Below, one piece after another: positions 21,001 through 24,000 of a DNA stretch of 64,000 bases. How positions within the stretch are numbered: position 1 is the stretch's first letter; each line of letters starts with the position of its first letter. A program made the position numbers. The stretch lies in NCBI RefSeq assembly GCF_054482595.1, contig NZ_CM137008.1. One strand, written 5' to 3'.

Positions 21001-24000
21001 CATGTGCGGATTAAATCCCGCGACCCGCACCAGCATCCGGCGATTCTGTTTAACTACATGTCGCACGAGCAGGACTGGCAGGAGTTCCGCGACGCAATTC
21101 GCATCACCCGCGAGATCATGCATCAACCCGCGCTGGATCAGTATCGTGGCCGCGAAATCAGCCCCGGCACGGAATGTCAGACGGATGAACAGCTCGATGA
21201 GTTCGTGCGTAACCACGCCGAAACCGCCTTCCATCCGTGCGGTACCTGCAAAATGGGTTACGACGAGATGTCCGTGGTTGACGGCGAAGGCCGCGTACAC
21301 GGGTTAGAAGGCCTGCGTGTGGTGGATGCGTCGATTATGCCGCAGATTATCACCGGGAATTTGAACGCCACGACAATTATGATTGGCGAGAAAATAGCGG
21401 ATATGATTCGTGGACAGGAAGCGCTGCCGAGGAGCACGGCGGGATATTTTGTGGCAAATGGGATGCCGGTGAGAGCGAAAAAAATGAGTCGTGATTTGAA
21501 CTGACTCAGGAACCGATCAGATTGAGAGTTACCGTTCCAGGTATGGGGACAGAATCGTTATATAAAACATAGGGGTAACTCTCATGCTTCATAGTGACAA
21601 CCTCGCCAGCAAATTCTAAGCTGACTCGTTCAATCTCGCTGATGAAGGTGCTATGAATGCACTGATAAACCGCAGGTGAAATGCCACTCAGCTTAAGAAT
21701 TACGCCGCTAGTGTTCCTGGCTATGGTGACTTGTTCACTCCCGCTCACGGTTAGCATATACGAAAAGGGTTCTTGTAACGAGGACAAAAATAAGTCAGAC
21801 CAAAACAACGTGGAGCTTTAAACACAATTCGTATAATTTATTAACAGTGATTTATTTTTACTCTTCTTTAATTAATCATCATGCTTAAATATTTTTTAGC
21901 ACAAGATTATCGCTTCGCTAACATTTTAGTTTACATTGATTTCCAATTGATAATAAAAAGTTGTTAATAAGTTTATGCGAAAAATAAAAATTGTTGAAAT
22001 ACTCTCCAGCAAATGAATCAAAAATAAACAAATTAATATTTACAAAAAGCAAAAAACTATTTAAGAGAACATCTTTAATTTATTAGCAGAACCCATCAAT
22101 AATGATTTACTTACGACTAAAAAATATCTTACAACAATGTGTTATTGTAAATTAACGGGAATGATATTAAATTTTTATTTTCTACACCACAACTTCATTG
22201 AACGACAAAATGCATATAAAATCAATAAGATAAATAATAAAGACAACCTCATAAGAAATAACGTCAAATATCTCAAAACTACTAAACATCACTAAAACAT
22301 TAGACGTAACACACATCCCCCACGCCCTGTAATTCATAGCTTTTATATTTATTTTTTCACATCAATGTAGATAAAAACACGCATTAAAAATGGCTTGTAG
22401 AAAAGCAGCACAATAAATAGTTCATATTTAGTCTATTGCGTAGAACTACTATTCAAAAAATCTTATTAATGAGATAATGAGATTACATCGATAACGTTCT
22501 GATTGCAGGCATACTTATCTGGGTGTGCCTCTCTTTTTTACAACTGTACACGGTGGCGTATGACGAGAAAATATCTCACACAGGATGAAGTCTACAGGCT
22601 GATGGATGCAGCCCAGAGCATGTCCTTTCCTGAAAGAAATCGCTGTCTAATTATGATGGCTTTCATTCACGGTTTTAGGGCCAGTGAACTTCTTGATTTA
22701 CGTTTATCCGATATTGATGCATCAGGAAAACAACTTAATATTCGGCGGATTAAAAATGGTTTCTCGACAACACATCCTCTTCTTCCTGATGAATATAATT
22801 TGATCAAGTTGTGGCTTAAGCAGAGGAAGTTAATTGAAAACGGAGTTGAAGGAGACTGGCTTTTTCTCTCCCGGAAACGCCGCCCTATCAGCAGACAACA
22901 TTTTTTTTCTATCATTCGTGAGGCTGGAAGACGTGCAGGATTAGCTGTAAAAGCACATCCTCATATGTTACGTCATGCCTGTGGTTTTGCTCTGGCTGAC
23001 AATGGTGTCGATACCCGACTACTTCAGGATTATCTGGGTCATCGAAATATCCAGCATACTGTCAGATACACAGCCAGTAATGCTGCTCGATTTAAAGGGG
23101 TGTGGAAAAAAAAGCCTCGTTAAAACAGTACCTTCTGATTCAAAATGTCAGATTCCTACGTTTTCCTCAATTCTTCCATAAAAAAACAGCCCATTCAATT
23201 CAATAAAACACATAACATGTTGATATTTCTCGCTAAAGTAAAATAACCCCATGATTTGAAATGATTAACCGCCAAGGTCATACCAGTGATTAACTTTCAC
23301 TCATGTTGTTAACATGCAACCAAATTAAAAACAATAAAAATCAAACAAATTAGATTTATATTCCAAGAAAATTAAATATTCAGGCAATTAAACCAAACCT
23401 GACATTTTGAATCAAAATGTCAGGTTTGGTAGCAATGGCGTGGACGAGTCTGAATGAAGAAGCCTCTGGTTATTATCAGTGCCTGTCAGTTCACCAGGCT
23501 GGCACTGGAGTCTCTCATCCCAACGGACAGGTATCTCGTGCGGGTGTACAGCAACGTCACTACAGAGGTTGAATTCATTTTAAAGACCTCCTGTGGCTAC
23601 CTGTTAGCTGATATCCCTTCGCTTCCTTCGGGGGAGTTGGTTCTTCTGGCTTGTCTTGTCCGCTTGCGGAGTGATGCCGGGCAATGGCAGGTCTGCCTGA
23701 CCGGTGACTCCGACTGGTTCGATAATGCTCCTGCTGCAAGTCTGTACTATGGCTTCCCACGCATAAGCACCCTGCTGACAGCGAGTCGTTATCAGAATCA
23801 AATTATCCGCTGGTTACTACGTCCTTTGCCCGGCGATATGAGTGATTTCTGGCTGCTGACTGCACGGGAGTTGAGCGTGCTTAAGATTCTGATGCAGGGC
23901 ATGAGTTTCAGTGAGATTGCCCGTTATGAACAACGCAGTTCAAAGACCCTGCATGCGATTGCCACACGGGCATTAATGAAACTTGGACTGGGAACTCTGA

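What the first reader, a model, noticed from the sequence alone, without database searches (positions are those of the whole stretch)
23392..23430. 39-bp perfect palindrome forming the right boundary of the switch
The 19-bp arms accaaacctgacattttga and tcaaaatgtcaggtttggt pair perfectly around one central base (23411). The right inverted repeat of the switch lies inside this palindrome, so the right recombination site carries the core caaaatgtcag in both orientations, whereas the left site does not. This asymmetry is unlike the simple 9-bp repeats of fimS. It could be a dimeric recombinase site, a cruciform or RNA hairpin that insulates the downstream LuxR gene, or the footprint of a past imprecise inversion.
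Basis: seen in the sequence. Interest (0 to 1): 0.55.

Follow-up and report, generated by a model that had tools for sequence, protein, structure and literature searches.

The report
Recombinase docking site of hyxS switch
The 39-bp palindrome is real. It is most simply the two-armed docking site for the FimX recombinase at the hyxR-side edge of the already known hyxS on/off switch of E. coli; its near-symmetry may also explain why the switch has been cleanly cut out of the chromosome several times in nature.

Summary
The palindrome is confirmed: 23392-23430, 19+1+19, perfect, about 1e-5 expected by chance.

It lies in a known system: ipbA/fimX (22560-23123), the invertible element hyxS, then hyxR (23454-24248). 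The published 16-bp inverted repeat (TGATTCAAAATGTCAG) sits at 23136-23151 and 23399-23414.

Best reading: it is the complete right-hand recombination site, with two 13-bp recombinase arms around a 7-bp crossover core (TGAATCA).
- The left site has the same layout but a diverged outer arm (8/13).
- An E. coli paralogous switch and the Salmonella T1-antigen switch share this layout.

The perfect 39 bp is not conserved. Among 1784 records in this orientation:
- 1318 have a mismatch at pair 23394:23428, including CFT073, where FimX-driven inversion is published.
- 293 are perfect through a different base pair.
- 12 match the window.

The conserved part is 33 bp. In the 17 genomes with the inverted orientation, the perfect arms shrink to 12 bp.

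Eighty-nine genomes carry a precise 272-bp excision joining the left outer arm to the palindrome's outer arm. It arose at least six times, with either centre base.

The RNA-hairpin, terminator and inversion-scar readings are poorly supported.

Verdict: known system, ordinary mechanism, with a modestly interesting population-level twist.

The parts
22560..23123 (+). ipbA (= fimX = hbiF), a 187-aa Fim-type tyrosine DNA invertase
   Evidence: ORF. RefSeq annotation of identical or near-identical loci. Pfam PF00589 on homologues. The R...HxxR...H...Y motifs are visible in the translation (GFRASE, HMLRHA, GHRNI, VRYT).
23123..23155 (.). Left recombination site: outer arm AAACAGTACCTTC (23123-23135, overlaps the last base of the stop codon), core TGATTCA (23136-23142, centre T23139), inner arm AAATGTCAGATTC (23143-23155)
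   Evidence: (I1: 32 nt, 81% complementary to the right site). The outer arm matches the consensus arm at 8/13 and the inner arm at 11/13 (read from sequence).
23136..23151 (.). Left copy of the published 16-bp hyxS inverted repeat, TGATTCAAAATGTCAG
   Evidence: Sequence. The 16-bp repeat length is stated in PMC6083910.
23140..23410 (.). hyxS invertible segment between the two site centres (271 bp; centres 272 bp apart)
   Evidence: The in-silico inversion of exactly this segment matches natural inverted alleles in 17 genomes (sequences L002, L029-L031).
23399..23414 (.). Right copy (reverse complement) of the 16-bp inverted repeat; it spans the palindrome centre
23395..23427 (.). Conserved 33-bp palindrome, read as the right recombination site: inner arm AAACCTGACATTT (23395-23407), core TGAATCA (23408-23414, centre A23411), outer arm AAATGTCAGGTTT (23415-23427)
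   Evidence: Invariant in all sampled window-orientation E. coli alleles. The 13-7-13 partition is inferred from the point where left/right identity begins in three homologous systems.
23392..23430 (.). The 39-bp perfect palindrome as reported. The outer 3 bp on each side include the polymorphic pair 23394:23428.
23394..23394. Polymorphic inner-arm base (C; A in the O157:H7 type)
23428..23428 (.). Polymorphic outer-arm base (G here; T in most E. coli; C in L009/L002; A in Escherichia sp. L010)
23454..24248 (+). hyxR, the LuxR-family regulator controlled by the switch
   Evidence: RefSeq annotation; PMC6083910.

Best explanation
The palindrome is the hyxR-proximal recombination site of the known hyxS phase switch. 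I read it as two inverted binding arms for the FimX/IpbA tyrosine recombinase (about 13 bp each, AAATGTCAGGTTT read outward) around a 7-bp crossover core (TGAATCA). A FimX dimer would sit on it, synapse with a dimer on the left site (core TGATTCA, one good arm, one diverged arm), and exchange strands inside the core, flipping the 271-bp segment. What is shown: the palindrome exists; natural inversion breakpoints fall at its centre; the arm sequence equals the left inner arm; the dyad layout and the strong-right/weak-left asymmetry recur in two diverged homologous switches. What is inferred: the 13-7-13 partition, the cleavage positions and FimX binding. The perfect 19-bp extent is incidental. 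Only 16 bp per arm is conserved, and the 17th pair is polymorphic. The core is symmetric apart from its central base pair, so the right site can also align with the left site as a direct repeat with a single central mismatch. I infer that this is how the 272-bp element is occasionally excised, leaving left outer arm + core + right outer arm, as seen in 89 genomes.
For: The locus is ipbA-hyxS-hyxR. hyxS has 16-bp inverted repeats and is inverted only by FimX, in UTI89 and CFT073 (PMC6083910; PMC6458436). Fim recombinases contact four half-sites, two flanking each repeat, and cleave within the repeat (PMC9993118). The in-silico inversion about the two centres reproduces the junctions of 17 natural genomes; sequences L002 and L029-L031 show the arms swapped exactly at the core. 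The left site is a degenerate copy of the same 32-nt dyad (I1). Homologous switches read as follows. E. coli paralogue (recombinase 81% identical): L CATTC|TGGTTCA|AAATGTCAGAT and R ATCTGACATTT|TGAACCA|TTATGTCAGAT. Salmonella STM0716 switch (72% identical): L CGTTC|TGATTCA|AAAAGTTAAG and R ATTTAACTTTT|TGAATCA|TATTGTTAAAT. In all three systems, left/right identity starts exactly 3 nt outside the centre, and the right site is the more symmetric one. A Hafnia homologue also has a dyad right site. Strains with the mismatched 17th pair are the majority (1318 of 1784 records) and include CFT073. Excision alleles occur in 89 genomes. The centre base is A in 68 of them. Every 1-mismatch variant I sequenced has T (L019-L023); L022 carries a second SNP. 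These alleles fall in at least six hyxR backgrounds, three of them identical (0/795 nt) to intact-switch alleles. The counts add up: 1783 + 17 + 89 = 1889, all genomes with the junction region.
Against: No binding, footprint or cleavage data for FimX on hyxS could be read here; Bateman & Seed 2012 is not in the library. The 7-bp core is inferred from symmetry and from where repeat identity starts, not from mapped nicks. Arms of 16-19 perfect bp exceed what the paralogue and the Salmonella switch keep: their positions 4-7 from the centre are not symmetric. Some of the symmetry in hyxS may therefore be unrelated to binding. The excisions could arise without FimX, by replication slippage or short-homology recombination between the 15/16-identical direct repeats, possibly stimulated by the palindrome.
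Confidence: 0.75

Rival explanations
1. The palindrome acts as a nucleic-acid structure: an RNA hairpin in read-through or 5'-UTR transcripts, or a DNA cruciform. In this reading it insulates hyxR from upstream transcription or tunes its expression in one orientation.
For: As RNA it folds into an 18-bp stem of -26.8 kcal/mol (z = -8). The stem weakens to -21.8 in the common C:T haplotype and to -16.9 in the inverted orientation, so it is orientation dependent. It ends 24 nt upstream of the hyxR start codon.
Against: No U-run follows the stem on either strand, and the terminator scan flags nothing there. No Rfam family reaches threshold; there are only spurious sub-threshold miRNA-hairpin hits. 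The stem does not cover the ribosome-binding region. An extended helix that would sequester the AUG is no better than 156 of 500 flank shuffles. The outer stem pair is mismatched in about 74% of strains. The same bases are demonstrably the recombination junction, which already accounts for the symmetry.
Confidence: 0.1
2. The symmetry is a mutational product, not a selected one. It would be a scar of an aberrant recombination or duplication, or the result of quasi-palindrome template-switch 'correction' during replication.
For: The only variable pair (23394:23428) has been made perfect twice by different changes: C:G in the window type and A:T in the O157:H7 type, both from the common C:T. In O157:H7, ipbA and hyxR are pseudogenes, so selection for FimX binding is unlikely there. 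This fits templated correction for the outermost 3 bp.
Against: It explains at most the 17th pair. The 33-bp core palindrome is invariant in E. coli, and its dyad layout is conserved in a paralogue and in Salmonella despite sequence divergence, which points to function. Non-perfecting states also occur at 23428: C in L009/L002 and A in L010.
Confidence: 0.08
3. The palindrome is an operator for another dimeric DNA-binding protein, for example HyxR itself, since LuxR/NarL-type regulators bind inverted repeats. It would give autoregulation next to the hyxR start.
For: Its position immediately upstream of hyxR and its dyad symmetry. This is not exclusive with the recombinase-site reading.
Against: There is no evidence for HyxR binding. 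The Salmonella switch keeps the dyad, yet the genes called downstream of it in this locus carry no LuxR or other Pfam domain. The arm sequence is shared with the left inner arm far from hyxR, as expected for recombinase arms.
Confidence: 0.05

Closest known systems
hyxS switch of UPEC (Bateman & Seed 2012, as cited in PMC6083910 and PMC6458436)
   Same: It is this element. It has the same genes (fimX/ipbA, hyxR, hyxA, hyxB), the same 16-bp inverted repeat, and near-identical sequence in CFT073.
   Different: None in kind. In the literature I could search I found no mention of three points: the palindromic character of the right site, the polymorphic 17th pair, and the natural excision alleles. 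The primary paper was not readable.
fimS switch (FimB/FimE; 9-bp IRL/IRR with flanking half-sites)
   Same: A Fim-family tyrosine recombinase encoded next to a roughly 300-bp invertible promoter element. There are four half-sites, two per repeat, with cleavage inside the repeat (PMC9993118). K-12 fimS IRL also shows GACA...TGTC dyad boxes, and its core TTGGGGCCAA is symmetric apart from its two central bases.
   Different: The fimS arms are short and imperfect, and its repeat is 9 bp. In hyxS the right site is perfectly symmetric over 33-39 bp, and its core is asymmetric at only one base pair.
Salmonella STM0716 T1-antigen switch (PMC11294581) and the uncharacterised E. coli paralogue (P0012 locus)
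   Same: The core is the same (TGATTCA/TGAATCA in Salmonella). The left outer arm is conserved and diverged from the consensus arm in the same way. The right site is dyad-symmetric.
   Different: Their right-site arms are imperfect (9-11 of 14). The paralogue core TGGTTCA is asymmetric at two positions, so misalignment as a direct repeat should be harder.
Simple tyrosine-recombinase targets (loxP 13-8-13, FRT, dif)
   Same: Inverted arms of about 13 bp around a 6-8-bp crossover region whose asymmetry sets polarity. From general knowledge, symmetric-spacer lox/FRT mutants give both inversion and deletion. That is the behaviour proposed here for the excision alleles.
   Different: There is no sequence or protein-family identity with Cre or Flp. 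Here two non-identical sites are used and one arm is deliberately weak. Cleavage positions are not mapped.

Membership tests
Fim-type invertible promoter switch (hyxS) | Adjacent FimB/FimE-family tyrosine recombinase gene | tested here: met
   ORF 22560-23123. RefSeq names it tyrosine-type DNA invertase IpbA/FimX/HbiF. PF00589 on homologues.
Fim-type invertible promoter switch (hyxS) | Short segment bounded by inverted repeats | tested here: met
   16-bp perfect repeat at 23136-23151 / 23399-23414, within a 32-nt 81% repeat.
Fim-type invertible promoter switch (hyxS) | Both orientations occur, with breakpoints inside the repeats | tested here: met
   1783 genomes in the window orientation and 17 inverted. 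The junction sequences equal the in-silico inversion.
Fim-type invertible promoter switch (hyxS) | Inversion depends on the linked recombinase | not testable with these tools
   Literature only: FimX overexpression gives the hyxS inversion signal in UTI89 and CFT073; the other recombinases do not (PMC6458436).
Fim-type invertible promoter switch (hyxS) | Promoter inside the element that drives the downstream gene in one orientation | tested here: inconclusive
   The consensus scan found no sigma-70-like site in 23140-23410. By eye, a weak TTGAAT-17-TATGGA lies on the minus strand near the left end, which would face hyxR after inversion (my reading only). The window orientation is therefore probably OFF, but this is unverified.
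Simple tyrosine-recombinase core site (two inverted arms + 6-8-bp crossover region) | Inverted binding arms of about 11-13 bp | tested here: met
   Arms AAACCTGACATTT / AAATGTCAGGTTT are invariant in the sampled window-orientation E. coli alleles, and dyad arms are present in the paralogue, Salmonella and Hafnia.
Simple tyrosine-recombinase core site (two inverted arms + 6-8-bp crossover region) | Central crossover region identical between partner sites and asymmetric, so that it sets polarity | tested here: met
   TGATTCA (left) equals the reverse complement of TGAATCA (right). Asymmetry is confined to the central base pair. Left/right identity starts exactly at the core edge in three systems.
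Simple tyrosine-recombinase core site (two inverted arms + 6-8-bp crossover region) | Staggered cleavage at the core edges and recombinase occupancy of both arms | not testable with these tools
   Needs footprinting or suicide-substrate mapping.
Intrinsic (Rho-independent) terminator | G+C-rich stem followed by a U-run | tested here: not met
   AGCAATGG follows the stem on the + strand and TTAATTGCC on the - strand. Nothing is flagged at 23392-23430.
Dispersed palindromic repeats (REP/BIME, MITE ends) | Many copies per genome | tested here: not met
   Median 1 place per genome, always at the hyx locus.
Curated RNA families (Rfam 15) | Match at gathering score | tested here: not met
   Only a 24.6-bit hit to a miRNA hairpin model (gathering score 100, E = 0.62).

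The most novel reading that the evidence does not exclude
hyxS may be a three-state element rather than a pure flip-flop. Its crossover core is symmetric apart from one central base pair, and its right site is a full palindrome. FimX could therefore occasionally synapse the two ends as direct repeats and excise the 272-bp promoter element irreversibly. The junction would be heteroduplex at the centre and would segregate into the A and T junction types, both of which are seen in nature. This would be a natural example of a tyrosine-recombinase switch with built-in, recurrent self-destruction that hard-wires hyxR expression in some lineages (89 of 1889 locus-positive complete genomes; at least six independent events).
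Probability: 0.4. Interest if true: 0.5.

Novelty: already known. Interest (0 to 1): 0.3.

Why it matters
The palindrome gives a concrete, testable model of what FimX recognises: 13-bp arms with a distal GTCAG box around a TGA(A/T)TCA core. The field still describes this recognition as an open question, because fimS and hyxS align poorly (PMC6458436). It also shows that the textbook picture of a 'pair of short inverted repeats' understates the sites. The right boundary is a full symmetric dimer site, and the left boundary keeps a conserved weak arm. This asymmetry is shared by the Salmonella T1-antigen switch. Practically, about 5% of hyx-positive genomes have lost the switch by precise excision and about 1% are assembled in the other orientation, some with fimX disrupted or separated from the switch by an insertion sequence. 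This matters when hyxR/hyxA/upaB phenotypes such as serum resistance, O-antigen length and macrophage survival are compared between strains.

Tried and rejected
- **Extended RNA structure.** The palindrome would clamp a helix between TATTCAGGC (23377-23385) and the hyxR start region GTCTGAATG. Rejected: 156 of 500 shuffles of the 5' flank fold as well.
- **Terminator reading.** Rejected: no U-tract.
- **Known RNA family.** Rejected.
- **'Empty site is ancestral, hyxS was inserted'.** Rejected: deletion alleles nest inside haplotypes whose other members have the intact switch (0 of 795 hyxR differences), and diverged homologues carry the element.
- **Genome-wide scan of one genome per species for FimX relatives.** It returned a single Escherichia sp. 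contig, itself an excision-type allele. Cross-species loci had to be obtained through the protein search and contig look-ups instead.
- **Leminorella and Edwardsiella homologue loci.** They gave no clear boundary repeats downstream and were not pursued.
- **Primary papers.** Bateman & Seed 2012 and Bateman et al. 2013 are not held. I could not check whether the palindrome or the ON/OFF assignment is described there.
- **First random control.** It gave one unexplained 19-bp outlier and was replaced.
- **151-nt deletion-junction query.** Uninformative, because BLAST pieces were joined across the element. It was replaced by a 63-nt query with a strict E-value.
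Full report
**1. Observation**

The sequence at 23392-23430 is ACCAAACCTGACATTTTGA-A-TCAAAATGTCAGGTTTGGT: two 19-bp arms, 100% complementary, around A23411.
- In 60 plain shuffles of the window the longest perfect arm was 12.
- In 150 Markov-1 random windows the longest arm was 13.
- The analytic expectation at the local A+T-rich composition is about 1e-5 such palindromes per window.
- One earlier ad-hoc control produced an unexplained 19-bp outlier, and I disregard it.

**2. Context**

The ORF at 22560-23123 is ipbA (= fimX = hbiF), a Fim-family tyrosine invertase. 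The ORF at 23454-24248 is hyxR (LuxR family). hyxA and the autotransporter hyxB/upaB follow (RefSeq annotation of matching loci).

This is PAI-X. The fimX-hyxR spacer is the known phase switch hyxS.
- It has 16-bp inverted repeats (PMC6083910).
- It is inverted only by FimX, in UTI89 and CFT073 (PMC6458436).
- The 16-bp repeat TGATTCAAAATGTCAG lies at 23136-23151. Its reverse complement lies at 23399-23414, so it spans the centre of the palindrome.

About 35% of complete E. coli genomes carry the locus (1903 of 5426).

**3. Anatomy**

The two site centres, T23139 and A23411, are 272 bp apart. Each arm below is read outward from the core.

| Arm | Sequence | Match to consensus arm |
|---|---|---|
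| Right outer | AAATGTCAGGTTT | consensus |
| Right inner | AAATGTCAGGTTT | 13/13 |
| Left inner | AAATGTCAGATTC | 11/13 |
| Left outer | GAAGGTACTGTTT | 8/13 |

The cores are TGATTCA on the left and TGAATCA on the right. They are reverse complements of each other, and each is symmetric apart from its central base pair (I1, 65). The right boundary is therefore a complete symmetric site, and the left boundary is the same design with one diverged arm.

**4. Test by natural inversion**

I inverted 23140-23410 in silico and searched all complete E. coli genomes.
- The window-orientation right junction is present in 1783 genomes.
- The predicted inverted junction is present in 17 genomes.

Four inverted alleles were read (L002, L029-L031). 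They match the prediction base for base. The right inner arm has moved to the left site (…CTGATTCAAAATGTCAGGTTTGGTTTAAT…). The former left inner arm now abuts the palindrome centre (…GGAATCTGACATTTTGAATCAAAATGTCAGG…).

In that orientation the perfect palindrome is only 12+1+12. Exchange therefore happens at the palindrome centre, and the 19-bp symmetry is specific to one orientation.

In two of the four inverted-orientation loci read, an insertion sequence affects fimX: IS66 disrupts it in L002, and IS26 sits between it and the switch in L030.

**5. Is the perfect palindrome conserved?**

It is not. Exact-match counts with 95-nt haplotype queries, among 1784 window-orientation records:

| Haplotype (23394:23428) | Example strains | Palindrome | Records |
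|---|---|---|---|
| C:T | CFT073, ST131 and ST95 examples | 16 perfect bp, a mismatch, then 2 bp | 1318 |
| A:T | O157:H7 type | perfect 19 bp | 293 |
| C:G | window type | perfect 19 bp | 12 |

- C:C also occurs (L009, L002).
- An Escherichia sp. allele has A at the 23428 position (L010).
- The other 33 bp (23395-23427) are invariant in every window-orientation allele I read.
- CFT073 carries the imperfect form and inverts hyxS when FimX is expressed (PMC6458436). The extra 3 bp are therefore dispensable for inversion.

Two of the derived states make the palindrome perfect. One of these is in O157:H7, where ipbA and hyxR are pseudogenes. This hints at quasi-palindrome template-switch mutation for that pair. 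With only a handful of events it remains a suggestion.

**6. Homologous switches**

- **E. coli paralogue.** The recombinase is 81% identical (P0012), and the locus sits beside budA/budB-like genes, with two regulators and an autotransporter downstream. Left site: CATTC|TGGTTCA|AAATGTCAGAT. Right site: ATCTGACATTT|TGAACCA|TTATGTCAGAT.
- **Salmonella STM0716 T1-antigen switch.** The recombinase is 72% identical (PMC11294581). Left site: CGTTC|TGATTCA|AAAAGTTAAG. Right site: ATTTAACTTTT|TGAATCA|TATTGTTAAAT.

Three features hold in all three systems:
- Identity between the left and right sites begins exactly 3 nt outside the centre. This is what a 7-bp crossover region predicts.
- The right site is dyad-symmetric out to 14-16 nt from the centre, most strongly in a distal box (GTCAG / GTTAA).
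- The left outer arm is diverged from the consensus arm yet conserved between systems: ACAGTACCTTC, ACAGTTCATTC, ACCGTACGTTC.

Two further comparisons fit.
- A Hafnia homologue also has a dyad right site, CAAAATG-GTT-CATTTTG.
- K-12 fimS shows the same idea in weaker form. IRL has GACA…TGTC boxes around TTGGGGCCAA, which is symmetric apart from its two central bases.

The literature reports that Fim recombinases contact two half-sites flanking each repeat and cleave inside it (PMC9993118). The palindrome therefore reads as an unusually perfect instance of the standard two-arm site.

**7. Excision alleles**

While sampling alleles I found loci where fimX and hyxR are only 58 bp apart (L001). 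A 63-nt junction query at a strict E-value finds 89 genomes with this allele.

The counts add up: 1783 + 17 + 89 = 1889, which is every genome with the junction region.

The junction is left outer arm + core + right outer arm. That is a recombination between the left site and the outer half of the palindrome acting as a direct repeat.
- 68 genomes have centre base A (…CTTCTGAATCAAAATG…).
- The remaining 21 differ from the A-type query by one or two bases. Every such variant I sequenced has centre T (L019-L023, including the ST73 strain clone D i14); one of them, L022, also carries a second SNP.

hyxR comparison shows at least six independent events. Three deletion alleles have hyxR identical (0 of 795 differences) to intact-switch alleles: L001 = L031, L021 = L007, L023 = L005. 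The other three events (L019/L020, L022 and the Escherichia sp. L010) are 2-46 differences from the intact alleles read.

A tyrosine-recombinase exchange across cores that differ only at the centre would leave a central heteroduplex. That heteroduplex would segregate into both A and T junctions, as observed.

Simple slippage on the 12-bp perfect repeat would give only T. Slippage followed by mismatch repair could, however, also give A. FimX dependence is therefore inferred, not shown; I put it at about 40-60%.

**8. Rival readings**

- **RNA hairpin or terminator.** The stem is strong: -26.8 kcal/mol, falling to -21.8 in the common haplotype and -16.9 when inverted. It lacks a U-tract, matches no RNA family and does not cover the ribosome-binding site. 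A larger fold that would hide the AUG is not better than chance.
- **Scar of an imprecise inversion.** This is contradicted by conservation of the dyad in diverged homologues.
- **Operator for HyxR or another dimeric protein.** This cannot be excluded, but it is not needed.

**9. Verdict**

The element is the already described hyxS switch, so its novelty class is 'already known'.

Three points appear undocumented in the literature I could search:
- The conserved unit is a 33-bp (13-7-13) palindrome paired with a conserved weak left arm.
- The 39-bp perfection is a minority, strain-specific state.
- The switch has been precisely excised at least six times in nature, as expected if its nearly symmetric core permits misaligned synapsis.

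Interest is modest (0.3). The excision model, if confirmed experimentally, would merit about 0.5.

Noticed in passing
window 28450-28490: A second perfect palindrome, larger than the reported one: 20-bp arms plus one central base (CTGTAAATATCCTGGCATTAGTAATGCCAGGATATTTACAG). It lies in the spacer between convergent ORFs 27686-28354 (+) and 28597-29439 (-). The region is core genome (5143 of 5426 complete E. coli genomes) and unannotated.
   Followed up: partly
window 24348-24374: A 13+1+13 perfect palindrome (GCACGCTGTACAG C CTGTACAGCGTGC) in the hyxR-hyxA spacer. It could be a terminator or an operator.
   Followed up: no
L014-L016 (E. coli contigs; recombinase at 2501-3067, switch about 3078-3318): An apparently uncharacterised hyx-like locus lies next to budA/budB-like genes. 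It has a FimX paralogue (81% identical), its own roughly 220-260-bp element bounded by an 18-bp repeat (TGGTTCAAAATGTCAGAT), two regulators of about 245 aa and an autotransporter.
   Followed up: partly
L001, L003, L019-L023 (E. coli) and L010 (Escherichia sp. MOD1-EC7003): These carry precise 272-bp excisions of hyxS that leave one hybrid site. In total 89 complete genomes have it, from at least six independent events, with both A and T centre bases. Many of the centre-A genomes are poultry or avian-pathogenic (APEC) isolates.
   Followed up: yes
L002 (NZ_AP027899) and L030 (NZ_LR890410): In strains assembled in the rare inverted orientation, an insertion sequence affects fimX. IS66 truncates it in L002, and IS26 sits between it and the switch in L030. 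These are probably naturally locked switches.
   Followed up: no
L004 (O157:H7 H6437): In O157:H7, ipbA is frameshifted and hyxR has an internal stop (RefSeq pseudogene flags). The switch and a perfect 39-bp palindrome (A:T variant) are nevertheless retained.
   Followed up: partly
window 23428 (partner 23394): One palindrome position carries all four bases across Escherichia alleles, while the neighbouring 33 bp are invariant in window-orientation alleles. Two of the three derived states restore perfect symmetry.
   Followed up: partly
L029 (APEC O18) 331-942: ipbA is annotated as 612 nt instead of 564 nt in this inverted-orientation strain, which suggests a changed 3' end. I did not examine it.
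   Followed up: no
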